Shown here one piece after another: positions 10,709-56,633 of a stretch of 64,000 nt of DNA. The stretch comes from a virus (taxonomy: Duplodnaviria > Caudoviricetes). Under the pieces are notes generated by a model. It made no database searches and had not been told where the DNA came from. It saw only the letters and a program-made list of their open reading frames with translations. The position numbers were made by a program, and so were the translations under genes. Position 1 is the stretch's first letter; every line of letters starts with the position of its first letter. The stretch lies in IMG/VR virus record IMGVR_UViG_3300037247_001786, positions 288,001 to 352,000 of that record; one strand, 5' to 3'.

Positions 10709-10915
10709 ATGACTAAAACTTTAATTGAGTTAAGAGAAGAATTTGAAGAGATGGCAGTAAATTGCATGTTCGATATAGAACGTAATTCAAATGGTGAATA
10801 TGAAAACACCGGAAGAAACACTTTTATGTTATGGGCAGGGTATTGGGAATGTGCTAGGATTAATGGTATAATAATCGGCAAAGATGCAGAATTTAAAAAT
10901 GCAAATAAAATTTAG
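10709..10915 (+). CDS. Hypothetical protein between the ncRNA and tmRNA
   Basis: 68-aa ORF with purine-rich RBS; its TAG ends on the first G of the tmRNA. Confidence 0.6.
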   Translation: MTKTLIELREEFEEMAVNCMFDIERNSNGEYENTGRNTFMLWAGYWECARINGIIIGKDAEFKNANKI

Positions 10916-11263
10916 GGGGTAAAAGGCATCGATTCCTATAGTTGAAAATTAAATAGCGTGTACGAGATGGTAGTTGGCTCGTTAAAAATCTACTAAAGTT
11001 GACTTAATTGACAACAGTTTTGCAATGGCTGCCTAGTCCGAAACTAGGTTGTTTACTCCTGATTCCTGTTAGGGAAGTAAGCACGATAACAGGATAGTTG
11101 AATGTTATTTGTCTCAAGATGACCTGATGCGAAAATGATTTGGGATAGAAAATATGAACCACGTTAATTTGGGTCAAATTTTTGAAATCTAAATAGTTAA
11201 CTACACACGTAGACGTTTAGTTGGAAAGTAGAGAAGACGCGAGTTCGAATCTCGCTACCTCCA
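10915..11263 (+). ncRNA. ssrA: tmRNA (transfer-messenger RNA)
   Basis: 5' GGGGGUAAAAGGCAUCGA; 3' GACGCGAGUUCGAAUCUCGCUACCUCCA; 7-bp acceptor stem with G3-U; internal tag ORF ending ...DNSFAMAA* (TAG 11034-11036); CCA not encoded. Confidence 0.95.
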
Positions 11264-11265
11264 AT

Positions 11266-11301
11266 AAAAGCCCTGACTTTTAATTAAGTTGGGGCTTTTT
11301 T
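11266..11301 (+). terminator. Intrinsic terminator after tmRNA
   Basis: AAAAGCCCTGACTT-loop-AAGTTGGGGCTTTT followed by T-run. Confidence 0.85.
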
Positions 11302-26489: not shown

Positions 26490-27608
26490 ATGAGTAGTAG
26501 TTTAATAGTAAATGTATGCGAAGTTAAGAAAGTTTACCCACATAAAAACGCCGACCGCTTAGAGTTGGCCGAAATTAAAGGTTGGCAAACGGTCATTGGT
26601 AAAGGACAGTATAAGGTTGGGGATATTGTTATCTTTATCCCACCTGATACTTTGGTCCCAGAAGAGTTAGCCGATGAATTAGGTATCAGGAACTATCTTG
26701 GCGGAAAAGATAAGACTAGAGTAAAGACTGTTCGTCTTCGTGGCGAGATGTCCTTTGGTCTTACTATTGATATTCCAGAAGGTAAAGATTGGGAAGTTGG
26801 TTACAACTGTGCAGATGATCTTGGTATTACTAAGTACTTTCCTCCTCTTAGGGCTACTTGCGGAGATTCCGCTCCTGAAGATGCTTTCTTTACGAAATAC
26901 ACTGATATCGAAAATATCAGAAACTTCCCTGATGTTATCAAAGAGGGAGAAAGAGTTATAGCAACAGAAAAGATAGATGGAACGAATTGCCGTACTGGTA
27001 TAAGTTTTTCTATTCTTGAAGATGGAACAGAAACTTACGAGTGGAAAGCTGGTTCTCATAAGCTTAAGAGGAAACGTCCAGAAGATGGTGTTCTTAAAGA
27101 TCATATTTACTGGTACCCTTATACATTAGACAGTGTTCGCAATATGATTGAAACTATTCATAATGCTCCAGAGTTTAAAGCTAAAGAGATTACCCTTTAT
27201 GGTGAGGTATATGGCAAAACAAGAGGTGGTCATAAGTCTCTTCATTATGGAAGAGTTGGTTCTCTCAATTTCGTGGCTTTTGATATGAAGTGGGATGGAG
27301 TTTATGTCAGTTGGGATATTTTCGAAACTCTTTGTTTGGAGTATGGCGTTCCAACAGTTCCGATTGTAGCAGAGTTCGATTTTAGTTTAGAGCAAGCTAA
27401 AGCTCTATCTACTGGTCACTCTCTTCTTGCCGAGGACAATGGTATGGAAGAGCCTCATATGAGAGAAGGCATTGTTATCAAGCCTATCAATGAGAGGCGA
27501 GACCCTACTGTCGGTAGAGTTGTAGTTAAGTTTATTAATGATGATTATATTATCTTAAAGAACAAGGCTTACGATAAAGGAGAAGTCACTGATTTCACCG
27601 ATGAATAA
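26490..27608 (+). CDS. RNA ligase (Rnl2-like, DRB0094 type)
   Basis: N-terminal HKNADRLELA OB-like domain; TEKIDGTN motif I, YGEV, FDM, EGIVIK. Confidence 0.88.
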   Translation: MSSSLIVNVCEVKKVYPHKNADRLELAEIKGWQTVIGKGQYKVGDIVIFIPPDTLVPEELADELGIRNYLGGKDKTRVKTVRLRGEMSFGLTIDIPEGKDWEVGYNCADDLGITKYFPPLRATCGDSAPEDAFFTKYTDIENIRNFPDVIKEGERVIATEKIDGTNCRTGISFSILEDGTETYEWKAGSHKLKRKRPEDGVLKDHIYWYPYTLDSVRNMIETIHNAPEFKAKEITLYGEVYGKTRGGHKSLHYGRVGSLNFVAFDMKWDGVYVSWDIFETLCLEYGVPTVPIVAEFDFSLEQAKALSTGHSLLAEDNGMEEPHMREGIVIKPINERRDPTVGRVVVKFINDDYIILKNKAYDKGEVTDFTDE

Positions 27609-28143
27609 GGAACATGTAAAATTAAGTAGGCTTCTTAGCAAAGTGTTACGTCACGCTCCAGAAAGTATTGGCATAACACTGGATGAAAATGGTTGGGTAG
27701 AGGTTCAAGAACTTCTTAAACGTATTGGCAAGCGTATCACTTTGGAAGACTTGGTCTACATTGTTGTCAATAATAACAAGAAGAGATTTGAATTCTCTAC
27801 CGACCAGAAAGAAATACGGGCTTGTCAGGGACATTCTATTGAAGTAGATTTGGAACTCAAGCCCGTATCTCCTCCTGATATTCTTTATCATGGCACATCT
27901 ATAAAAACTGTCGAGTATATTAAACGAGATGGTATCATCAAAATGAACAGGAACCATGTTCACTTGTCTTTTGATTATGACACAGCACATAATGTAGGTC
28001 AACGACATGGCAAACCCTCAATTCTTTTAGTCGATGCCAAAAAGATGCATGAACACGGTATGGAGTTTTTTACTTCTACTAATCATGTTTGGCTCACAGA
28101 TTTTGTTCCGAAAGAATATATCTTAAATATAAATTACGTTTGA
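27601..28143 (+). CDS. kptA: RNA 2'-phosphotransferase (Tpt1/KptA)
   Basis: LRHAPE, KKRFE, CQGHS, YHGT, RNHVHLS, VWLTDFVP. Confidence 0.93.
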   Translation: MNKEHVKLSRLLSKVLRHAPESIGITLDENGWVEVQELLKRIGKRITLEDLVYIVVNNNKKRFEFSTDQKEIRACQGHSIEVDLELKPVSPPDILYHGTSIKTVEYIKRDGIIKMNRNHVHLSFDYDTAHNVGQRHGKPSILLVDAKKMHEHGMEFFTSTNHVWLTDFVPKEYILNINYV

Positions 28144-28168: not shown

Positions 28169-28514
28169 ATTTTTAGTAATAATATTTAAGAGGAATAAAA
28201 ATGGACAACATAGGCACTTTAATGACTACTTTTTCATCAGACGATTATATTGGTGGAACTTGTGTTGAGTTAGCATACTATTATGGTTATGAAGCTAGTA
28301 AATGTACTGTATGCGGTAATTTCAATGAAAGCGAATATTGTAGTGAGTGTGACGATGCAGATAGGGACTGGTGTTTTACAGTAAGAAATCTTAGCCATGA
28401 GAGGATATTCGTTAAAACTTATAGAGAACTTGGGGCGGAGAATATGTTCGATTTAAGAGATTGCTTTATAAGAGGAGTAATGAGTTATGTCGAGTCGTTA
28501 AAGGAGGGGCAAGA

Positions 28515-29228
28515 ATGATCATACCAAATTATGATGATGGAACAGTAGATGTCCATATAGACCCGATAGATTTAGGAAAATGTAAGCAGTTGGCTAGTGT
28601 TTTTAGCAAGCTTGGACAATGGGGAGGTCTGGATACTTACGGTGGAGGCAGTGGCAATACAGTTGATGATACCAAAAGAGTTGAACGTACTGGAGCTTTG
28701 GGGGAAAGGGCTTTTAGCAAGATGACTGGTATTCCGATGAACGAGGAGTACAAAGCAAACGGCGATGCTGGTTTTGATTTTCAAGTTCCTTCTTTTTCTA
28801 TTGATGTTAAATGCCATACAAGAAATCCAAATCAAGCAGAGGAGTGGGGATATCATGGAGAGTTTTTTACGAAGGCTCATTTTAGAAATGGTTCCTATAT
28901 TCCTCCCAGAGCTGATATTCTTATTTTCAGTGCTATTGTGGCAGGAGATGCTACTACGAATAAATATGGTGATGATTGGGGCGAATTTGGGGTAAATAGT
29001 AAAATAGCAGATAATTTAATTATTAGATTTTTTGGAGCTATCAGTAGTAAGAAAGTTTTCAATAATTACCAAGAAAGATTGGGAGCTAAATTACAGAGAG
29101 GTGGACCTAATAGTCATAGTGAGTTTAAAAATTATTACATAAAAAAAGAAGAGTTGTTGCCGATGATAGATTTTCTTTTTAAATATAAAACAGAATTACT
29201 TACAGCTAAAAGTGGTGTTATTATATAA
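28515..29228 (+). CDS. Putative PD-(D/E)xK nuclease
   Basis: GALGERAF, GDAGFDF, IDVK motifs; overlaps the start of the Dam-like MTase. Confidence 0.55.
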   Translation: MIIPNYDDGTVDVHIDPIDLGKCKQLASVFSKLGQWGGLDTYGGGSGNTVDDTKRVERTGALGERAFSKMTGIPMNEEYKANGDAGFDFQVPSFSIDVKCHTRNPNQAEEWGYHGEFFTKAHFRNGSYIPPRADILIFSAIVAGDATTNKYGDDWGEFGVNSKIADNLIIRFFGAISSKKVFNNYQERLGAKLQRGGPNSHSEFKNYYIKKEELLPMIDFLFKYKTELLTAKSGVII

Positions 29229-30193
29229 TGGCATGTTTCCGTTACCCAGGTGGTAAAGCAAAAGTTAAGAAAGAAATAATAGGTAGAATAGGGCGTTATT
29301 ACGATGATAATAAGTGTTACGATACTTGCCAATATGTAGAGCCCTTTTTTGGGGCTGGAGCTATAGGTATGCAGTTTATATCTTCTAGCAATATAAAAAG
29401 TGTTATGATATGTGATGCAGATCCAGCTATATCTGCTTTTTGGAACGCGGTGATTTCCGCTCCTAGTTTTCTCTGCCGAATGGTAGAGGAGTTCGAACCC
29501 TCAGTAGAGGCTTTTTTTAGATTTAAGGAACTATTAACTTCCGACGAGATGCGTACTCTCACTTTTGATTCTTCATGGAGATTTGTAGAAGTTGGTTTTG
29601 CTAAGTTAGCTTTGCATCAAATTTCATATTCGGGATTAGGGACAATGTCAGGTGGACCATTGGGAGGAGTAAATCAGGAATCCGAATATAAGATAGATTG
29701 TCGTTGGAATCCTGATAACATCAAGAAGAATATAAAAGAAGCCCATAAAGTTCTAAGTTCTGTAGATGTCTACAGGGGAGATTGTATGGAGATAGATTTC
29801 TCTTGTGCTATCGACTTACAGAAGGAATTGAGGGATTGGAAGGAGATGGGAGTGGAACCCGAATATGAGATAGAAGAACTTGATTCTAGGTTCTTCTATC
29901 TCGACCCTCCTTACTACGAAAAAGGTGGGGAGTTGTATCAATATAGTTTTAATGAAGAAGATCATAAAAGATTAATGAACATGCTAAAAGAGACAAAGCA
30001 TCCTTGGTTATTATCCTATGACAGTGCGGAGGAGATAAGGGAGCTATACGATTGGGCTTGTATCTCTGAACTGTCATTGACCTATACGATTAATGCTAAG
30101 GATAAGGGGCGGCAAAAGAAAGAATTTCTTATTGCTCCCCCAGAATATAGTTATCTGTTAGATGACTTGTACGAAAATGATATTTTTAATTAG
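29228..30193 (+). CDS. DNA adenine methyltransferase (D12/Dam-like, alpha class)
   Basis: RYPGGKA, YVEPFFGAG, YLDPPYY. Confidence 0.92.
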   Translation: MACFRYPGGKAKVKKEIIGRIGRYYDDNKCYDTCQYVEPFFGAGAIGMQFISSSNIKSVMICDADPAISAFWNAVISAPSFLCRMVEEFEPSVEAFFRFKELLTSDEMRTLTFDSSWRFVEVGFAKLALHQISYSGLGTMSGGPLGGVNQESEYKIDCRWNPDNIKKNIKEAHKVLSSVDVYRGDCMEIDFSCAIDLQKELRDWKEMGVEPEYEIEELDSRFFYLDPPYYEKGGELYQYSFNEEDHKRLMNMLKETKHPWLLSYDSAEEIRELYDWACISELSLTYTINAKDKGRQKKEFLIAPPEYSYLLDDLYENDIFN

Positions 30194-30937: not shown

Positions 30938-31909
30938 ATGAGTATCATAAAAGATACATGGGAAATAGTTGATCAGTTTACAAAAGATCCTTCTTACGTT
31001 ACTATCAATAAAGAAGCTATTTCGGTTTTGTCTAAAAACATAAAAGAATATCTCCCTGCCGCGAAAGATTTTTTTATAGGTGAGCCAAGATGGATGAAAG
31101 ATATTAAATGGGATAGTTCTGCTTATAATAAAGTATATGAACTTGTCGCTTATGAATTAATATTTGATTCGGTTAACTATAATTATTGGTATGGTAAGGG
31201 GACAGTTCGACCTAATGGATCCTCTTCATATGAGATGTCTAAATTATTGGATGAATCTTTTATCGAGGCTCACTCTTTTGTAGATGCTCATGCCTTTCTC
31301 ATGGGAGAATCTACTGGACCTTCGAAAGAAATATGTTTCATAGCTGTTACTGTATTTCGTAAAAAATTAAAAAAGAATCGCTATCCTAATATCGAAAATA
31401 GGATTAAGCATCTTGCTGAAGTGCAAACAACTTTTAGTAAGGAGTTCGATTCTATTACTTGGATAGAAGAGTTAATAGAAAAAGTATTAAATGGCAAAGA
31501 GAGTATAGAAGAAACTTTAGAAATTATAACTAATCGTTACACTGGATATTCTTCTGATATGTTTTTAAAAAGAGCCTTTCTCTTTATTATTGAAATGAAT
31601 AGGAGAGTGGGTTGGTATAAGGATGAGATACATTTAGTCCCTATTCCTGCGGACTATCATATACCCAAGATGCTCGATTATCATGGGGTTTTAGATTATG
31701 CTGGTATCTTGCAGAGCAAAATCTTTAATAGAGAACTAATATCATCTGGTTCTTTACAAGAGTGCGAGATAAGGGCTTCTTCTATGAAGGCTTGTCAATT
31801 AATTGCTAAAAAAGCAAAAGTTACGATGGCTGACGTAGATACTTATTTATTTGCAAATAGGAACGTTTGCACTTGTCCTTTTCATCTAACGATAACAACG
31901 GACTATTAA
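30938..31909 (+). CDS. Queuosine-salvage N-glycosylase (QNG1/DUF2419-like)
   Basis: DSVNYNYW, LKRA, ADYHIPKML, EIRA, D.YLF, C-terminal PFHLTITTDY. Confidence 0.82.
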   Translation: MSIIKDTWEIVDQFTKDPSYVTINKEAISVLSKNIKEYLPAAKDFFIGEPRWMKDIKWDSSAYNKVYELVAYELIFDSVNYNYWYGKGTVRPNGSSSYEMSKLLDESFIEAHSFVDAHAFLMGESTGPSKEICFIAVTVFRKKLKKNRYPNIENRIKHLAEVQTTFSKEFDSITWIEELIEKVLNGKESIEETLEIITNRYTGYSSDMFLKRAFLFIIEMNRRVGWYKDEIHLVPIPADYHIPKMLDYHGVLDYAGILQSKIFNRELISSGSLQECEIRASSMKACQLIAKKAKVTMADVDTYLFANRNVCTCPFHLTITTDY

Positions 31910-35422: not shown

Positions 35423-36655
35423 ATGAAAGATTTAGTTAAGACAATTAAAAAAATAAGCAAGAGACACCCAGGATATCTAGGAGATTTTTTGCCTATAAGA
35501 TTATTGAAGTATAATTTCTTGAAGAGAGGTTTAGATAGAGAAGTTAAAGCTGACATGGTGAATGTACAGTCTCATCCACAGTTTCCTCATCTAAAAATAT
35601 ACAAGTACTCTCAAGACGCAGTTTGCGAAAGAAATTGGAACGAGATAACTCTTATAGCTAGAGGTCTGATAGTAGATACAGAAGCTAAAAAAGTTATAGC
35701 TACTCCTTTTGTAAAATTCTTTAATTATTCAGAGTTGATACCTATCGCTGAAATAATGGAAAAAGAATTTGTTGCTTTAGAGAAACTTGACGGATCAATG
35801 GGTATATGCTTCTTTTACGAGAACAAATGGAGAATAGCTACTTGCGGTTCTTTTGCTTCTGAGCAGTCTCAGTGGGCTAATAAATATTTTGCAAAGTATA
35901 TACAAGATAGGCATCTTGAAGAAGATACTACATACTTATTAGAAATAATATACCCAGAGAATAAGATAGTTGTTCCTTACTCAAAAGAAACTTTATGTTT
36001 GTTATCAGCTTACAGAAAAGGTTACGAGTTAGAGAAAAAAGAGTTAGATATAGTGGCTTTTAAATCTGGATTTTCTGTTCCAGAAACTTATGACTTTAAT
36101 AAATTGGATAAGATATTACACGAAGCATCTATCATAGATCATACTCAAGAAGGTTTTGTAGTTAGGTTTAAGTCTGGTGTTAGAGTTAAGATAAAAGGTG
36201 ACGAATATTGTCGTATCCATAAGTTGATATCTAGAGTAACTCCTATTGCCGTATGGGAGATGTTGGTAAGCGGCGATGATATGGAATCTGTGAAAAAAGA
36301 TCTTCCAGAAGAGATGGAGTTCGACTACGATAACATAGTTTCTATCTTAAGAGCTATGTTGCAAGAAACTCTTGACGGTATAGATCATGCTTACGAAGCG
36401 ACAAAACACTTGTCTGATAAAGAACTTGGTTTGGACTTGTCTAACAAAGAATCAGAGTATCTTAAAGACGAGATAGTGAAACAATTTAAGTCTTATATTT
36501 TTCCTAGGAGAAAAAACACATTTGAGGAGCAGTTCAATGATGTTGATTCTTTGATGAGAAGGAAGATATTTAAGTTGTTTAGACCTAAGAGCAACTTTTT
36601 AGAAGGGTACGTTCCTTCTTCTGCTATGAACAGGTTTCAAGACGGAGTGAATTAA
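35423..36655 (+). CDS. RNA ligase (T4 Rnl1/RnlA-like)
   Basis: ARGLIVD, PFVKFFNY, EKLDGSM, LEII, EGFVV, VKIKGDEY. Confidence 0.88.
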   Translation: MKDLVKTIKKISKRHPGYLGDFLPIRLLKYNFLKRGLDREVKADMVNVQSHPQFPHLKIYKYSQDAVCERNWNEITLIARGLIVDTEAKKVIATPFVKFFNYSELIPIAEIMEKEFVALEKLDGSMGICFFYENKWRIATCGSFASEQSQWANKYFAKYIQDRHLEEDTTYLLEIIYPENKIVVPYSKETLCLLSAYRKGYELEKKELDIVAFKSGFSVPETYDFNKLDKILHEASIIDHTQEGFVVRFKSGVRVKIKGDEYCRIHKLISRVTPIAVWEMLVSGDDMESVKKDLPEEMEFDYDNIVSILRAMLQETLDGIDHAYEATKHLSDKELGLDLSNKESEYLKDEIVKQFKSYIFPRRKNTFEEQFNDVDSLMRRKIFKLFRPKSNFLEGYVPSSAMNRFQDGVN

Positions 36656-37489: not shown

Positions 37490-38167
37490 ATGTTCCTGAT
37501 CGGCGACGTTCATGGCGAGTGGAAAACTTATAGACATATCATAGAAAAGATGCAACTTAAGGGTGGCAGAAAAGGTATGGACTGCTCTCTCGTTCTAGGC
37601 GATATGGGTATAGGTTTTGAAGATTTCTCAAATGATAGCATTAGAGATAGAAGTTTCATAAAAGATATCCCTCTTCAACATAAATTCATAGTGGGGAACC
37701 ACGACGATCGTGATTTAGCAAATACTCATCCTAATTGTTTGGGAGATTTTGGATATCATGAAAAGAGTGAACTGTTTTATGTGTCAGGTGGTTTTTCAAT
37801 TGATTATGAATGGAGAGAAAAAGATATTACTTGGTGGGAGAACGAAGAGCTTTCTGCCAAGCAAATAGATGAGGCTCTTGAGTTGTACTCGAAAGTTAAG
37901 CCAAAAATAATAGTGGCTCATGAGTGTCCTACAGAGGTGAAATATTTTGTTATTACTAATCCTCTAAAAAGAGAGATTAAATCAAGGACGGAGAAGATGC
38001 TTCAAAAGATGATAGAAATTCATCGTCCAGATTATTTTATTTTTGGGCATCATCACCAAAGAGAAGAAACTAATATAGATGGAACTCAATATATCTGTTT
38101 GGGAACTTTAAGTTACGATGGATACTCACAATGTATCTTTGAGATACCAGGAATAACATGGGAATAA
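37490..38167 (+). CDS. Calcineurin-like metallophosphoesterase
   Basis: GDVHG, GD, GNHD, HE, FGHHH. Confidence 0.88.
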   Translation: MFLIGDVHGEWKTYRHIIEKMQLKGGRKGMDCSLVLGDMGIGFEDFSNDSIRDRSFIKDIPLQHKFIVGNHDDRDLANTHPNCLGDFGYHEKSELFYVSGGFSIDYEWREKDITWWENEELSAKQIDEALELYSKVKPKIIVAHECPTEVKYFVITNPLKREIKSRTEKMLQKMIEIHRPDYFIFGHHHQREETNIDGTQYICLGTLSYDGYSQCIFEIPGITWE

Positions 38168-38814
38168 AAAAGAAAATAATTTATTGCATAAGTGATATGC
38201 ATGGTTGCATCTCGGAACTAACTATTCCTGAGTGTGATATATTGCTGATAGCGGGAGATGTATCTCGTTATGGTAGGCAACTCTATAAAGACGCGAATTG
38301 GCTGGAAGACCACTTTAATAAGTGGCTTGGAGAGCAACCCGCTAAACATATTGTTATGACTCCTGGTAATCATGATATTATTTTTGAGAAGATGCCAGGA
38401 CTAATTCCTAAAATAAATTGTCATGTTCTTATAGATGAAATGATAGAGATTGAAGGGATAAAGATATATGGATCTCCTTGGACTATCGAATTTTATCATT
38501 GGGCTTTTAATCTGAAAGAAGAAAATCTTAAAATGGTTTGGGACCAGATACCAGATGATACCGATATATTGCTTGTTCATTCTCCTCCTTATTGCATCTT
38601 TGACATGACTAACTCACCAGGATATCCTAGAAAAAGAATAGGTAGTAAGAGTCTTAAAAAGAGGATAGAAGAGGTGCGTCCTAAATATGTTATCTTTGGG
38701 CATAATCATGGAGAAGTAGGCGTAAAGGAAGAAAAGGGCATTACTTATATTAATGCTTCTCTCCTTGACGACTTATATATGATGGTTAATTCTCCCATTT
38801 TAATAGAGATATAA
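38158..38814 (+). CDS. Calcineurin-like metallophosphoesterase
   Basis: SDMHG, AGD, GNHD, HSPP, FGHNH. Confidence 0.88.
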   Translation: MGIKKKIIYCISDMHGCISELTIPECDILLIAGDVSRYGRQLYKDANWLEDHFNKWLGEQPAKHIVMTPGNHDIIFEKMPGLIPKINCHVLIDEMIEIEGIKIYGSPWTIEFYHWAFNLKEENLKMVWDQIPDDTDILLVHSPPYCIFDMTNSPGYPRKRIGSKSLKKRIEEVRPKYVIFGHNHGEVGVKEEKGITYINASLLDDLYMMVNSPILIEI

Positions 38815-53252: not shown

Positions 53253-54134
53253 ATGGAAGATCGTTTTATCGGCAAGCGTATTGGAAGAGTTGTAGTATTA
53301 AAGCAGATTGGTGTCAAAAAGAAAAGAAAAGCTTACGAATGCCTATGTTCTTGTGGGAAAAAAGATATATTAAGTTCTGATCAATTATCAAGAAATAAGA
53401 ATCCTGGGTGTAAGAAATGTAGCCGTAGAATTAAATTTACAGATTTAAAAGGGCAAAGATTTAACAAATTAGTAGTTATAAAAGAAGATGTAAGTTATAA
53501 AGGTAACGGGGTAAAATGGCATTGCCTCTGTGACTGTGGGAATAAGACAGTCGTTTTGTCGGGGTCATTAAAAAACGGACATACAAAATCTTGCAGTTGC
53601 TTACAAAAAGAAAAAGTCAGTAAAATAAAAGTTAATTTAACAGGACAGAAATTTGGGAAATTAACAGTTATAAAAAAAGAGCCCGAGAACGCTAAGTGGC
53701 TGTGCAAGTGTGAATGTGGCAATGAAGTTATTACTCGCTCAACGTCTTTGTACTCTGGGGCGACGAAGTCTTGCGGTTGTATTCGTATAGAAATGCACAC
53801 CGGCCCAAATAGTAGATTTTGGAAAGGTGGTATAACTTTAATTAATAGGGGTATTAAAAAATCTTCTAAATATTGGAAGTGGGTAAGATATGTAAAAAAA
53901 AGAGATCAATATACTTGCCAATGTTGTTCTTTGCAAGCAATTAGTAAGAAATTACATGCTCATCATATAAGAAATTTTGCTGATAATATTGATGTAGCTT
54001 TTGATACTAATAATGGGATTACTCTATGTGAGGGATGCCATAAAAAATTTCATGCTGTTTATGGAAAAATTAAAACAGATAATAAACAATTAACGGAATT
54101 TATTAAAAATGAAAAAATCAAAAATAAAACTTGA
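53253..54134 (+). mobile_element. Free-standing HNH homing endonuclease with repeated CxCxCG DNA-binding modules
   Basis: Three L.G.(R/K)(F/I)..(L/V).V...C.C.CG repeats, WKGG, CQCC, HAHHI, NGITLCEGCHKKFH; very AT-rich. Confidence 0.85.
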
Positions 54135-55113
54135 AGATATTGGTTTCTATACCTTATATGAAGAGAGGTGTAAATATGCTAATGCGACAAGCCCTATGAT
54201 TAGAGCGGAACTTATTATAACTAGTTTTTGTAATTTTAATTGTCCCTACTGCCGAGGTATGAGAGAAGAATGTAGAGGCGACATGTCATTATTCCAAGCT
54301 CTTCGAACCATTTATTTTTGGACAGATGATAACCTCAAAAACATTCGCTTCTCAGGAGGAGAGCCAACTCTTCATAAAGGTTTAATGGATATGGTTCGCT
54401 ATGCTAAAGAAAGAGGAGTAGAAAGAATTGCTCTCTCCACAAATGGTAGTGCGAAAACAGAATTATATGATGAACTTGTCGAAGCTGGCGTTAACGATTT
54501 CTCGATTTCTTTAGATGCCTGCTGCTCAACTTATGCAGATAAAATGGCTGGCGTTGACGGTCAGTTCCAAAAAATTATTGATAATATTAAGTATCTTTCA
54601 GAGAAGACTTATGTAACTGTCGGCGTTGTGTTTACCGAAGAAACTGTTGATAGTATTGTAGAGGTTATACAATTGGCTAATGACTTGGGCGTATCTGATA
54701 TTCGTATCATCTCTGCTGCTCAAGAGAGTGAAACATATTTCAAATTTTCAAAGTCAGTTTCTGTCTTCGGCACAGGTTTCAGAAAGAGATATCCTATATT
54801 AGCGTATAGGTTAGAAAATATCGAAGAAAATGTTCCTGTCAGAGGTTTGATAGAGAGCGATTCTCATAGATGCGGTTTGATGACAGATGACAGTATGGTT
54901 GCTGGTAAGTGGCATTATCCTTGCATCATACATTTCAGAGAGGGAGGAGACCCTATCGGAGAAGTTGGTCCTAATATGAGAAAAGAGAGAATAGATTGGT
55001 TAAAGACACATGATACCCACTCTGATCCTATCTGCAAAAAAAATTGTTTGGATGTATGCGTAGCATATAATAACAGATTCGCAAAATATTCTGGCATGAG
55101 AAAGAATATTTAA
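54109..55113 (+). CDS. Radical SAM enzyme
   Basis: CNFNCPYC, FSGGEPT, STNG, ISLD; C-terminal Cys cluster. Confidence 0.9.
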   Translation: MKKSKIKLEDIGFYTLYEERCKYANATSPMIRAELIITSFCNFNCPYCRGMREECRGDMSLFQALRTIYFWTDDNLKNIRFSGGEPTLHKGLMDMVRYAKERGVERIALSTNGSAKTELYDELVEAGVNDFSISLDACCSTYADKMAGVDGQFQKIIDNIKYLSEKTYVTVGVVFTEETVDSIVEVIQLANDLGVSDIRIISAAQESETYFKFSKSVSVFGTGFRKRYPILAYRLENIEENVPVRGLIESDSHRCGLMTDDSMVAGKWHYPCIIHFREGGDPIGEVGPNMRKERIDWLKTHDTHSDPICKKNCLDVCVAYNNRFAKYSGMRKNI

Positions 55114-55114
55114 C

Positions 55115-55143
55115 TTGAAAGTGATTTTTAAATATGATATAGT
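55115..55143 (+). promoter_or_regulatory. Sigma70-like promoter upstream of a small TM ORF and the tRNA
   Basis: TTGAAAGTGATT...TGn TATAGT, 17-nt spacer. Confidence 0.65.
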
Positions 55144-55373
55144 ATTGTTTTAAGATAAAAGGAGATAAATATGTTATATATTTTAGTTGGTATCGTTTGG
55201 GGAATATTCTCTGTAAAAATGCAGCAAAAGTTCCATCCTACTTGCAGCGATAAAAGAGATTTAGCCATTAACTTTATTGTTAATGGGGTGATATGGCCTA
55301 TCAGTATGGTTGTCGCCGCTTATCGTTATTTCACTAAAACTGGTTGGGCAAAGAATTTATAGTATTGTAATAA

Positions 55374-55530
55374 CGGCTCGTACCTCAGAGGACAGAGGGT
55401 CTAGCTCATGTAGTCATGTCCATGCCTAATTTCGAAATACGGCTAAGGAGAAGACGGAGTCATTCTAGAATAAGACTTTAATACGTGAGAACTACTAGAA
55501 AGTCGCAGTGTTCGAATCCTGCCGGGCCGA
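55374..55530 (+). tRNA. tRNA with CAU anticodon (Met/Ile2 type) interrupted by an ~83-nt insert in the anticodon loop
   Basis: Acceptor CGGCUCG/CGGGCCG+A; D-arm CCUC/GAGG; anticodon stem UCUAG(55400-55404)/CUAGA(55495-55499); CU-CAU at 55405-55409; T-loop UUCGAAU. Confidence 0.75.
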
Positions 55531-55769
55531 TTTTTTTGGAAAGGAAAGTGTTATGGCTAGTTTTATATGTTTATTAATTATAGCGGGATTAATTTATTGT
55601 TTCGTAAATAAGGACAACGAAATAGTAGAGTGCATAGTCGCTGCAATCGTAACTATCTTTTTACTATTGGTAGCTTTGATCATTGCTTATTTTCCTTATA
55701 TTCTTATCGCATGTGCAGTAGTCCTCCTTGCTAAAGGTTGTTAGCAAAGAGGAAGAAAGGTAATGTCGT

Positions 55770-56633
55770 ATGAAGATACAAACTTTTTCAATAGTAATAG
55801 GTGATAAAAGATGTAATGCTAGATGCCCTTATTGCGTTTCTAAAATGACGGGCGATGAAGGGCTTGAGTGCGGTTCTCAAGGCATCAATTACAGAAACCT
55901 TAAGAAGGCTTGTGAGTTCGCAAAGATGTCAGGAGTTAGTACTATACTGCTAACTGGTAAAGGAGAGCCTTTACTCCATATAGATCAAATCACAGAATAT
56001 CTCCGTTTAATAGATGGATATAATTTCCCATTTATCGAATTACAAACCAATGGGATAAAACTGTCTGAACCCGTAACTCAATCCACACTTGGACTTTGGT
56101 ATAGCCTCGGATTAACTACTGTATCTCTCTCTTGTGTTCATTGGGACGATAGCTATAATCAAAGAATTTTCGGCAAAAATTATGGTTCTTTAAAAGAATA
56201 TGTTGACATATTACATGATAATTTTCTTTCTGTAAGATTAAGTTGCGTAATGTGTAAAGGTTATATTCATAATCTTCAAATGGTTCAAGCTTTTGCCAGA
56301 ACATGTAAGAGATGGGGAGTTGAGCAGTTTACTGTACGTCCAGTTAATTATGCTACTGGAGGTAACGAGAAGATAGAAAACTGGGTCAGAGACCATTTTG
56401 TAACTGAAGGTATGATGAATAGCATTGAGAGATTTCTTGATAGGAGTAAAGAATCTACTCTATTATTAGAACTCGCTCATGGAGCGAAAGTGTATGATTA
56501 TATGGGTCAGAACCTCTCCTTAAGTTCTTGCTTGACTAGTAGTCCTAATCCAGATGATATAAGACAACTAATATTTTTTCCAGACGGGCACTTGAAATAT
56601 TCTTGGACCGAGGCTGGAGCAATTTTATTTTAG
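55770..56633 (+). CDS. Radical SAM enzyme
   Basis: CNARCPYC, LTGKGEP, QTNG. Confidence 0.88.
   Translation: MKIQTFSIVIGDKRCNARCPYCVSKMTGDEGLECGSQGINYRNLKKACEFAKMSGVSTILLTGKGEPLLHIDQITEYLRLIDGYNFPFIELQTNGIKLSEPVTQSTLGLWYSLGLTTVSLSCVHWDDSYNQRIFGKNYGSLKEYVDILHDNFLSVRLSCVMCKGYIHNLQMVQAFARTCKRWGVEQFTVRPVNYATGGNEKIENWVRDHFVTEGMMNSIERFLDRSKESTLLLELAHGAKVYDYMGQNLSLSSCLTSSPNPDDIRQLIFFPDGHLKYSWTEAGAILF

What the first reader, a model, noticed from the sequence alone, without database searches (positions are those of the whole stretch)
55374..55530. tRNA(CAU) split by a structured 83-nt insert that base-pairs with its own anticodon
Seen: all four tRNA arms are intact. Removing 55411-55493 (the canonical eukaryal/archaeal 37/38 position) gives a 74-nt tRNA with loop CU-CAU-GA. 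The insert's 3' end UACGUGAG (55482-55489) pairs with CUCAUGUA (55405-55412), masking the anticodon, and it holds two hairpins (GCC..AUUUCGAAAU..GGC; AGUC-AUUCUAGAAU-GACU). It is too short for a group I intron and is not a textbook bulge-helix-bulge (5-nt bulge on the 3' side only). The C1-G72 pair argues against an initiator; G37 is atypical and the T-stem has a 1-nt bulge. Inference: a protein-spliced or self-cleaving intron in a bacterial virus, possibly hiding the anticodon from host anticodon nucleases until the phage ligases/Tpt1 mature it.
Basis: partly seen in the sequence, partly recalled or inferred. Interest (0 to 1): 0.8.

Follow-up and report, generated by a model that had tools for sequence, protein, structure and literature searches.

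The report
Structured non-ribozyme insert in phage tRNA
A tRNA gene of a 461-kb marine-sediment bacteriophage is split just after its anticodon by a conserved, folded 83-base insert that pairs with and hides the anticodon. It matches no known self-splicing intron, so it adds a well-supported case to the unsolved question of how giant phages use such tRNAs.

Summary
Window 55374-55530 (+) is a complete tRNA body, with an 83-nt insert (55411-55493) between positions 37 and 38. ARAGORN and Rfam miss the gene as it stands. Deleting exactly that insert gives tRNA(CAU).

It is not a decaying pseudogene. A homolog on a distantly related phage contig (L158) has the same architecture. Its proteins are only 34-50% identical to this phage's, yet 10 base pairs differ by changes on both sides. 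Marine metagenome contigs carry further variants.

The insert forms a three-way junction: P1 (anticodon loop paired with the insert's 3' end), a nearly invariant P2, and P3. It is more conserved (83%) than the exons (about 73%).

It is not a group I intron and matches no Rfam ribozyme. It is not a bulge-helix-bulge intron, and not a tRNA-shaped mini-intron.

The host is bacterial. The phage lacks EndA, RtcB, a 2H phosphoesterase and RNase III. It does encode Rnl1-like and Rnl5-like ligases, Tpt1, two metallophosphoesterases and AAA_33-type P-loop kinases.

Splicing is not shown, and no RNA data could be laid. Best reading (about 0.4): a protein-dependent intron. Main rival (about 0.3): an unspliced, tRNA-scaffolded RNA.

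The closest precedent is the 'enigmatic' tRNA introns of Lak megaphages. This scan has noted other anticodon-loop inserts in phage tRNAs on other DNA, and several more in this genome.

The parts
55374..55410 (+). 5' exon: acceptor 5' strand, D arm, anticodon stem 5' strand, loop positions 32-37 (C U C A U G)
   Evidence: Compensatory changes in the acceptor and D stems against L158.
55411..55493 (+). 83-nt insert (putative intron) at tRNA position 37/38
   Evidence: Only this deletion, or the one-base shift, gives a tRNA call. 83% identical to the L158 insert. No Rfam family matches. Unique in the genome.
55494..55530 (+). 3' exon: A38, anticodon stem 3' strand, variable loop, T arm with one bulged base (55509), acceptor 3' strand, discriminator A. 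No encoded CCA.
   Evidence: The T stem keeps its pairs through 3 double-sided changes.
55405..55412 (+). P1 5' strand: anticodon-loop positions 32-37 plus the first two insert bases. It pairs with 55482-55489.
   Evidence: 8 bp kept in four variants, given as 5' strand / 3' strand, each 5'->3': window CUCAUGUA/UACGUGAG; L158 CUUACACA/UGUGUAAG; two Logan-contig variants..
55482..55489 (+). P1 3' strand
55413..55455 (+). P2: long imperfect hairpin (GUC/GAC, UCC/GGA, GCC/GGC, 14-nt apical loop holding the palindrome AUUUCGAAAU). It is almost invariant between relatives.
   Evidence: The 28-nt stretch 55412-55439 is identical in L158. Contig depth peaks here.
55456..55479 (+). P3: 6-bp hairpin with a 12-nt loop
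   Evidence: Two double-sided changes against L158. The Logan contigs show T55460C, and the letters printed after 55470-55471 put a G at 55475, its pairing partner.
55490..55494 (+). 5-nt bulge R-A-C-U-A on the 3' strand. It contains the putative 3' splice site (55493|55494).
   Evidence: ACUA is conserved in all variants seen.
55115..55143 (+). Best sigma-70-like promoter upstream (TTGAAA-17-TATAGT, TG-extended). It would co-transcribe a 63-aa membrane ORF (55171-55362) with the tRNA.
   Evidence: This is a consensus match only, and such matches are no more frequent here than in shuffled sequence. ORF translated.
55531..55537 (+). Run of seven T directly after the discriminator (possible transcript end)
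   Evidence: Not conserved in L158.
26490..27608 (+). Rnl5-type (Naegleria NgrRnl-like) RNA ligase whose gene overlaps the Tpt1 gene. Candidate partner; the link is inferred.
   Evidence: Pfam PF09414 + PF21189. PDB 5cot, E 1e-15.
27601..28143 (+). Tpt1/KptA RNA 2'-phosphotransferase. Candidate partner; the link is inferred.
   Evidence: PF01885, 176 bits.
35423..36655 (+). T4 Rnl1-like RNA ligase, the family that reseals broken anticodon loops. Candidate exon ligase; inferred.
   Evidence: PF09511. PDB T4 Rnl1, E 3e-8.
37490..38814 (+). Two adjacent calcineurin-like metallophosphoesterases. Candidate end-healing enzymes; inferred.
   Evidence: PF00149.

Best explanation
The locus is a functional phage tRNA gene of the Met/Ile/Val identity group (anticodon CAU here). 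It carries a conserved, structured intervening sequence that is neither a group I intron nor a known ribozyme, at the canonical 37/38 position.

In the precursor, the tRNA body folds normally. The six loop bases 32-37 plus two insert bases pair with the insert's 3' end (P1), so the anticodon is buried in an 8-bp helix. That helix closes a three-way junction with P2 and P3.

To decode, the RNA must be cut at 55410|55411 and 55493|55494 and the exons rejoined in the anticodon loop. The most likely agents are an unidentified protein endonuclease and the phage's own repair kit. The endonuclease would recognise the invariant anticodon stem, the RACUA bulge and P2. The kit comprises the Rnl1-like ligase and, depending on the end chemistry, AAA_33-type P-loop kinases that could act as polynucleotide kinases, metallophosphoesterases and Tpt1.

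Shown: gene anatomy, conservation, covariation, absence of known ribozyme cores, and presence of the ligase/healing genes.
Inferred: transcription, cleavage, ligation, and any role in timing or protection.
For: 1. The tRNA body is authentic. All four arms are present, along with the bases that make the usual tertiary contacts: U8, A14, G15/C48, the GG of the D loop and TTCGAAT. The exon stems are kept by compensatory changes.
2. Exact removal of the insert restores a 7-nt loop C-U-NNN-R-A in both full-length members. That gives tRNA(CAT) for the window and tRNA-Val(TAC) for L158. Other deletions do not work.
3. The insert is under strong purifying selection. It is 83% identical between phages whose proteins are 34-50% identical. 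P1 and P3 are kept by 5 double-sided changes in the two-sequence alignment. Two more P1 variants and one more P3 change appear in the metagenome contigs.
4. The three anticodons seen (CAU, UAU, UAC) all belong to the Met/Ile/Val group. In that group the discriminator is A73 and identity is set mainly by the anticodon (established knowledge: Schulman & Pelka 1988; Muramatsu 1988). A73 is kept in both full-length members.
5. The phage carries an Rnl1-like ligase, an Rnl5-like ligase overlapping Tpt1, two metallophosphoesterases and three AAA_33 kinases. That set can heal and seal a cut anticodon loop.
6. At least five other tRNA-like genes in this genome have 15-45 extra bases in the anticodon loop. 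This suggests a shared way of handling them.
7. Precedent: conserved non-classifiable tRNA introns in Lak megaphages (PMC6784885).
Against: - No RNA evidence: no spliced junction and no free intron.
- No intron-less allele was found that would fix the boundaries.
- The genome has no EndA, RtcB (15), RNase III (98) or 2H phosphoesterase (97). No protein-only tRNA splicing is known in bacteria.
- The 5' splice site lies inside a continuous helix whose pairs at positions 36, 37 and insert base 1 are actively maintained. No known splicing endonuclease uses such a substrate.
- G37 next to a CAU or UAU anticodon is atypical (A37/t6A is the rule). One short contig variant reads C at position 33. The T stem carries a bulge.
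- Three anticodons among four close variants is fast for a decoding tRNA.
- The genome already has three intact CAU tRNAs.
- The insert is more conserved than the exons, which suggests it has a function of its own.
- Ligase and Tpt1 kits are common in jumbo phages without any link to introns (PMC9503650).
- An earlier claim of this scan that proteins rejoin the halves of another split phage tRNA was later priced at 14/100.
Confidence: 0.4

Rival explanations
1. Unspliced tRNA-scaffolded RNA. The 158-nt molecule is itself the product. The tRNA body gives RNase P/3'-end processing and stability. The three-way junction in place of the anticodon loop is the working part, for example a protein-binding module or a decoy for tRNA-targeting enzymes. 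The 'anticodon' is just part of helix P1.
For: - The insert, and P2 above all, is more conserved than the exons.
- P1 evolves like any structural helix: 4 of 8 positions differ between the window and L158, all compensated. This gives three different 'anticodons' in four variants.
- Non-canonical tRNA features are tolerated: G37, a possible C33, a bulged T stem, and an A-U closing pair of the T loop in L158.
- No endonuclease or ribozyme was found.
- The genome already has intact CAU tRNAs.
Against: - In both full-length members, exact excision gives a canonical 7-nt loop with C32, U33, a purine at 37 and A38, plus a sense anticodon of one identity group. A mere helix has no need for that.
- No function or partner can be named.
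- No known natural RNA has this architecture.
Confidence: 0.3
2. The insert is the product. The tRNA acts as a processing cassette, and cleavage releases the 83-nt three-way-junction RNA, linear or circular, as a phage small RNA. Whether the exons are rejoined is secondary.
For: - P2 is almost invariant, and contig depth peaks over the insert.
- Functional RNAs released from tRNA introns are known in archaea and animals: C/D box RNAs and tricRNAs (PMC4536317, listed).
Against: - The same missing endonuclease.
- P1 uses exon bases, so the released RNA would lose its closing helix.
- No target complementarity was identified.
Confidence: 0.12
3. A new small self-cleaving or self-splicing ribozyme, with the invariant P2 as its catalytic core.
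For: - Strong sequence conservation of P2 with internal loops.
- A compact three-way junction.
- No protein endonuclease was found.
Against: - No match to any Rfam ribozyme, even at E<=10 with lax filters.
- No hammerhead, hairpin or HDV core motifs on inspection.
- 83 nt is far below any self-splicing intron.
- The junction has only two unpaired bases.
Confidence: 0.08
4. A tRNA-shaped intron cut out by RNase P and RNase Z and resealed by a ligase, as proposed by this scan for mini-tRNA inserts in other jumbo phages.
For: - P1/P2/P3 plus a single-stranded ACUA tail loosely resembles an acceptor stem with arms and an NCCA-like end.
- That route would give 3'-OH and 5'-phosphate ends that a ligase can join directly.
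Against: - The 5' strand of P1 is made of exon bases 32-37. RNase P cutting at the 5' end of P1 would therefore remove the anticodon and leave a 4-nt loop.
- Neither ARAGORN nor the Rfam tRNA model sees a tRNA in the insert.
Confidence: 0.04
5. A tRNA pseudogene disrupted by a small mobile or palindromic DNA element.
For: - The insert holds DNA palindromes (ATTTCGAAAT, TTCTAGAA).
- HNH genes lie near both copies.
Against: - The insert is unique in the genome.
- The two HNH proteins are unrelated.
- Ten compensatory pair changes, and conservation across phages whose proteins are 34-50% identical, exclude neutral decay.
- The second palindrome is not conserved.
Confidence: 0.03

Closest known systems
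'Enigmatic' tRNA introns of Lak megaphages (Devoto et al. 2019, Nat Microbiol, PMC6784885)
   Same: Huge phage of bacteria. The inserts sit in the anticodon loop of phage tRNA genes, are highly conserved between genomes, could not be classified with Rfam, and have no known mechanism. That paper already suggests such introns may be common in large phages.
   Different: Different phage lineage and habitat (marine sediment, not gut). Here the fold is defined and backed by covariation: a three-way junction whose closing helix contains the anticodon. One Lak intron was described as tRNA-like; this one is not.
Archaeal/eukaryal protein-spliced tRNA introns (bulge-helix-bulge; EndA/Sen endonuclease; RtcB, or Trl1 + Tpt1)
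   Same: Canonical 37/38 position. The intron pairs with the anticodon. The 3' splice site lies in a single-stranded bulge next to the anticodon stem. Tpt1 and ATP-dependent ligases are present in the genome.
   Different: No 5' bulge: positions 36, 37 and insert base 1 are kept paired. The 3' bulge is 5 nt, not 3. There is no EndA or RtcB in the phage. The host is bacterial. The insert sequence is more conserved than the exons.
Group I introns in bacterial and phage tRNA anticodon loops (tRNA-Leu UAA, fMet, Ile-CAU, Arg-CCU; Williams 2020, bioRxiv 10.1101/2020.01.27.920355)
   Same: Bacterial-world tRNA genes interrupted in the anticodon loop.
   Different: 83 nt against roughly 200 nt or more. 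No match to Rfam's Intron_gpI. The terminal insert base is U, not the usual G. The base before the 5' splice site is G, not U.
T4 Pnkp/Rnl1 repair of tRNA-Lys cut by the PrrC anticodon nuclease
   Same: An Rnl1-family ligase and end-healing enzymes encoded by a large phage. The substrate is a break in the anticodon loop held together by the tRNA body.
   Different: In T4 the break is a host attack on a host tRNA. Here the 'break' would be programmed excision of 83 nt from a phage tRNA. The Tpt1 and Rnl5-like genes are extra.
tRNA-shaped mini-introns in other jumbo-phage tRNAs
   Same: Non-group-I inserts in anticodon loops of jumbo-phage tRNAs, in genomes that carry RNA ligases.
   Different: Those inserts fold on their own into an acceptor/T-arm minihelix that RNase P/Z could cut out. 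This insert closes its main helix with exon bases, so that route would destroy the anticodon.

Membership tests
tRNA (Rfam RF00005 / ARAGORN cloverleaf) | Detected as a tRNA by standard models | tested here: not met
   As it stands it is not called: ARAGORN with or without -i; Rfam at gathering score and at E<=10.
tRNA (Rfam RF00005 / ARAGORN cloverleaf) | Four arms, a 7-nt anticodon loop and the conserved tertiary bases once the insert is removed | tested here: met
   ARAGORN calls tRNA(CAT), 74 nt, after deleting 55411-55493. U8, A14, G15/C48, GG and TTCGAAT are present. One bulged base in the T stem.
Bulge-helix-bulge (archaeal/eukaryal) tRNA intron | Intron at 37/38 or another position flanked by the motif | tested here: met
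   The position is 37/38.
Bulge-helix-bulge (archaeal/eukaryal) tRNA intron | Two 3-nt bulges on opposite strands separated by a 4-bp helix, with the splice sites in the bulges | tested here: not met
   The 5' site lies inside a continuous 8-bp helix. The pairs at 36, 37 and insert base 1 are maintained in four variants. The only bulge is 5 nt, on the 3' strand.
Bulge-helix-bulge (archaeal/eukaryal) tRNA intron | EndA/Sen-family splicing endonuclease available | tested here: not met
   PF01974 has no match in the complete 461-kb genome, while the control passes its cut-off only in the four archaea. The host is bacterial. The host genome is unknown.
Group I intron | Conserved P3-P8 catalytic core (typically about 200 nt or more), U before the 5' site, G at the 3' end | tested here: not met
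   83 nt. No Intron_gpI hit even at E<=10. The boundary bases are G|U...U|A.
Known small self-cleaving ribozymes (hammerhead, hairpin, HDV-like, twister, pistol, hatchet) | Match to the family covariance model or core motifs | tested here: not met
   No Rfam match on 55398-55502 or 55200-55700 at E<=10.
Lak-type 'enigmatic' phage tRNA introns | Conserved insert of no known class in the anticodon loop of a tRNA gene of a huge phage of bacteria | tested here: met
   461-kb phage with direct terminal repeats. Bacterial markers. Insert conserved and unclassifiable. The family has no molecular definition beyond this.
Lak-type 'enigmatic' phage tRNA introns | Removal from the RNA (a true intron) | not testable with these tools
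   One metatranscriptome run (X7) held 3% of the sampled words, but the single read-laying run had been used.
tRNA-shaped (RNase P/Z-excisable) mini-intron | The insert's own 5' and 3' ends form an acceptor-like stem with a T arm, so that cuts at the ends of that stem leave intact exons | tested here: not met
   Six of the eight bases in P1's 5' strand are exon bases 32-37.

The most novel reading that the evidence does not exclude
Giant phages of bacteria run their own protein-dependent tRNA splicing pathway. An undiscovered endonuclease would recognise the anticodon stem, the RACUA bulge and the invariant P2 arm of a three-way-junction intron. Phage Rnl1-type ligase, with kinase, phosphoesterase and Tpt1, would rejoin the exons. 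Until spliced, the anticodon is locked in a helix, so the tRNA is invisible to host anticodon nucleases and becomes active only once phage enzymes are made.
Probability: 0.2. Interest if true: 0.85.

Novelty: new variant of a known kind. Interest (0 to 1): 0.62.

Why it matters
Protein-dependent tRNA splicing is regarded as a trait of archaea and eukaryotes. Bacteria and their viruses are only known to have self-splicing group I introns in tRNAs.

Since 2019, huge phages have been known to carry unexplained tRNA 'introns'. This locus gives that puzzle a small, sharply defined and evolutionarily validated substrate: 158 nt, with a fold backed by covariation, fixed candidate cut sites, and an invariant arm that looks like a recognition element. 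The same genome carries a full set of RNA end-healing and sealing genes.

That makes a bench test straightforward. If the insert is spliced, it would reveal a new endonuclease and a physiological substrate for bacterial-world Tpt1 and Rnl ligases. If it is not spliced, it is a new class of tRNA-scaffolded phage RNA. Either way, standard tRNA finders miss it.

Tried and rejected
Searches for more family members:
- IMG/VR scans with the 3' exon, a 15-mer and a 20-mer of P2, a gapped P2 pattern and the bulge/3' exon gave only chance hits or unrelated tRNAs. The 120 hits are the start of an unrelated coding gene (MSELLESRWQ...).
- Two scans of genome contigs gave nothing or a chance hit.
- The metagenome scan gave the single homolog, L158.
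- Covariance model R1 found no copy in 35 related phage records. The one hit was an ordinary tRNA-Ile.
- Syntenic loci of the flanking radical SAM genes lack the element.
- INPHARED phages: no match.

RNA evidence:
- No RNA holder was listed for the 2.4-kb stretch.
- One metatranscriptome run (X7) held 3% of the words of the 631-nt stretch.

Ideas rejected:
- Coding insert. A 21-codon frame (55416-55481) is open in both members, but some contigs have a 1-nt deletion at 55435 and there is no ribosome-binding site.
- Homing linked to the nearby HNH genes. The two HNH proteins are unrelated.
- Repeat or MITE. The insert is unique in the genome.
- Archaeal host. The phage has a sigma-70 factor, a tmRNA and an initiator-type tRNA with a 1:72 mismatch.
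- RNase III cutting of P1. The staggered cut would leave 8 extra bases, and the phage has no RNase III.
- 'The only tRNA-Tyr is intron-bearing'. This is false: a normal type II tRNA-Tyr(GUA) lies at genome 375824-375907.

Hunt for an endonuclease near the repair genes:
- PHROGs and ESM Atlas gave nothing for 38816-39703.
- They gave a restriction-endonuclease / T4 Endo IV-like reading for 28461-29228. That gene abuts a Dam-type methylase, so it is probably DNA-directed.

Full report
**What is there**

The window is bases 288001-352000 of a complete 460,978-bp virus record with direct terminal repeats. The only run that holds the whole stretch is a marine sediment metagenome, which may be its source.

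At 55374-55530 (+) the sequence has every part of a tRNA:
- a 7-bp acceptor stem, C1-G72 to G7-C66, with one G-U;
- U8 and A9;
- a 4-bp D stem with a GG-containing loop;
- a 5-bp anticodon stem (UCUAG/CUAGA);
- a 5-nt variable loop ending in C48;
- a T arm with the loop TTCGAAT;
- discriminator A.

Between loop positions 37 and 38 lie 83 extra bases (55411-55493). ARAGORN (with or without intron mode) and Rfam (gathering score, or E<=10) report nothing here. Joining 55410 to 55494 gives a 74-nt tRNA(CAT) at default settings. Of 55 alternative deletions, only this one and its one-base shift are called.

The minimum-free-energy fold of the 158 nt is a cloverleaf whose anticodon arm continues into further structure:
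- P1, an 8-bp helix (55405-12 with 55482-89) made of loop bases 32-37 plus two insert bases;
- a 5-nt bulge on the 3' strand (55490-94);
- P2, a long imperfect hairpin (55413-55455);
- P3, a 6-bp hairpin (55456-55479).

These helices meet in a three-way junction with only two unpaired junction bases.

**It is conserved and under structural selection**

A metagenome contig (L158, 1916 nt) holds a 158-nt homolog with the same architecture. That contig comes from a distant relative of this phage. Four of its five ORFs tested match scattered genes of this genome at only 34-50% amino-acid identity.

Even so, the tRNA plus insert is 78% identical in nucleotides. The insert alone is 83% identical, above the roughly 73% I counted for the exons from the alignment. 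A 28-nt stretch of P2 is identical.

On the two-sequence alignment, 98.9% of cells are standard pairs, and 10 of 44 pairs differ on both sides. These are 1 in the acceptor, 1 in the D stem, 3 in P1, 2 in P3 and 3 in the T stem. With partners slid by 1-3 columns, pairing is 40-44% and double-sided changes number 0-2. RNAalifold predicts the same fold without guidance.

Contigs of four marine metagenome runs carry further copies, about 84% identical, in other flanking contexts, and depth peaks over the insert. Their printed differences and loose ends give:
- two more P1 variants (5' strand CUUAUGCA, with 3' strand UGUGUAAG or UGUAUAGG), all 8 bp paired;
- T55460C, with a G at its P3 partner 55475 in the letters printed after 55470-55471;
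- other acceptor stems (CGGCGCA, CGGCGAG).

The extra base in the 5' strand of the T stem is present in L158 too, so it is a family trait.

No further members were found in IMG/VR, in 35 related phage records or in the prokaryote genome set. The insert is unique within the genome.

**What it is not**

- Not a group I intron. It is 83 nt, has no Intron_gpI match, and the boundary bases are wrong (compare Williams 2020).
- No Rfam family, ribozymes included, matches even with lax filters.
- Not a bulge-helix-bulge intron. In that motif, positions 36, 37 and the first intron base are bulged. Here those are exactly the positions kept paired through compensatory changes, and the only bulge is 5 nt on the 3' strand.
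- Not a 'tRNA-shaped' mini-intron of the kind this scan noted in other jumbo phages. The 5' strand of its closing helix consists of exon bases, so cuts by RNase P/Z at the ends of that helix would remove the anticodon.
- Not coding. The 21-codon frame is broken by a 1-nt deletion in some contigs.
- Not tied to the HNH genes that lie near both copies, which are unrelated to each other.

**Host and enzymes**

The virus infects bacteria. It encodes a sigma-70 family factor, a family that matched only the ten bacterial control genomes. It also has a tmRNA and an initiator-type tRNA with a 1:72 mismatch.

The genome has about 37 other tRNA genes, mostly at 373-386 kb, including three intact CAU tRNAs.

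It has no EndA, RtcB, 2H phosphoesterase or RNase III. It does have:
- an Rnl5-type ligase (nearest solved structure: Naegleria NgrRnl) whose gene overlaps Tpt1 (26490-28143);
- a T4 Rnl1-like ligase (35423-36655);
- two metallophosphoesterases (37490-38814);
- three AAA_33 kinases elsewhere in the genome.

Such kits are known in jumbo phages and are usually read as repair of tRNAs cut by host nucleases (PMC9503650). Their presence makes splicing chemically feasible but does not show it.

**How it most likely works**

Two readings remain close.

(A) Spliced intron, about 0.4.
- The exons form a bona fide tRNA body.
- Exact excision yields a canonical loop (C32, U33, a purine at 37, A38) in both full-length members.
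- The three anticodons seen (CAU, UAU, UAC) all belong to the Met/Ile/Val group. That group shares A73, and identity there is set mainly by the anticodon (established knowledge).
- The invariant anticodon stem, RACUA bulge and P2 would be recognition elements for an unknown endonuclease.
- The Rnl1-like ligase is the natural sealer of an anticodon-loop break.
- At least five other tRNA-like genes in this genome also have enlarged anticodon loops.

(B) Unspliced tRNA-scaffolded RNA, about 0.3.
- The insert is more conserved than the exons.
- P1 changes as fast as any structural helix, so the 'anticodon' differs in three of four variants.
- G37, a possible C33 and the bulged T stem are odd for a decoder.
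- No cutting enzyme is in sight.

Lesser options are release of the insert as the functional RNA (0.12), a new small ribozyme (0.08), RNase P/Z excision (0.04) and a pseudogene (0.03).

**Comparison and novelty**

The closest precedent is the set of conserved, unclassifiable tRNA introns of Lak megaphages. Their authors called them enigmatic and guessed they were common in large phages (PMC6784885 and its preprint). I found no later paper in the library that explains them.

This locus is a new structural variant of that kind. It has a fold backed by covariation, an anticodon-masking helix, and an arm more conserved than the tRNA itself.

This scan has already noted related inserts on other DNA and in this genome. 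One earlier claim of protein-mediated rejoining of another split phage tRNA was later priced low (14/100), which tempers reading (A).

**Verdict**

- Observation: confirmed.
- Interpretation: partly supported.
- Kind: real, conserved, and either an intron or a scaffolded RNA of unknown mechanism.
- Interest: 0.62.

Noticed in passing
genome 374207-374295 (= L295:1808-1896), outside the window: tRNA with perfect acceptor, D and T arms (Rfam 60 bits). Its 4-bp anticodon stem closes 24 nt instead of 9, including the palindrome GTCTGGCCAGAC. Removing 17 nt between positions 32 and 33 would give a Phe(GAA) loop, UUGAAAU.
   Followed up: partly
genome 32000-32108 and 32164-32253 (minus strand; L296): Two adjacent tRNA-like genes with intact arms but 25- to 45-nt anticodon loops containing hairpins. 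Rfam scores the second at 36.8 bits, with 24 nt in place of 6 loop positions.
   Followed up: partly
genome 372524-372612 and 382465-382555: Two more tRNA-like genes with enlarged anticodon loops or odd arms. In the first, the stem CCUCA/UGAGG closes 26 nt that include a CCGG...CCGG hairpin. The hairpin loop, GUCA, can pair with the would-be anticodon region UGAC.
   Followed up: partly
genome 375824-375907: A bacterial-type (long variable arm) tRNA-Tyr(GUA). ARAGORN misses it; Rfam finds it at 35 bits. With it, the phage's intact tRNAs cover all 20 amino acids.
   Followed up: partly
window 10915-11266 (+): A phage-encoded tmRNA (Rfam 101 bits, full length) that ARAGORN does not report.
   Followed up: no
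window 26490-28143 (+): The Rnl5-type (NgrRnl-like) RNA ligase gene overlaps the Tpt1/KptA gene by 8 nt, which suggests a translationally coupled pair. Downstream lie a restriction-endonuclease / T4 Endo IV-like ORF (28461-29228) and a Dam-type methylase (29228-30193).
   Followed up: partly
window 46444-47589 (+): A 381-aa protein combining a periplasmic solute-binding domain with a potassium-channel pore (GluR0-like ligand-gated channel). This is unusual cargo for a phage. A PspA/IM30 homolog lies at 45365-46033.
   Followed up: no
window 54109-55113 and 55770-56633 (+): Two radical SAM proteins flank the split tRNA. In distant relatives (L029, L034), ordinary tRNA genes sit just upstream of the homolog of the second one. 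A queuosine-salvage-like gene lies at 30938-31909.
   Followed up: partly
L040:7880-8010 (IMGVR_UViG_3300036770_007848): An unrelated viral contig with a tRNA-like 3' end (the same T arm and acceptor 3' strand). It is preceded by about 100 nt of GC-rich structured sequence that is not a normal tRNA.
   Followed up: no
window 55411-55414 and 55491-55494: The insert's first bases, UAGU, are complementary to the bulge ACUA. The core AGU/ACU is conserved in L158. This is a possible alternative 3-4-bp helix that would bring the two putative splice sites together and free bases 32-37. It cannot be tested by covariation, because both sides are invariant.
   Followed up: partly
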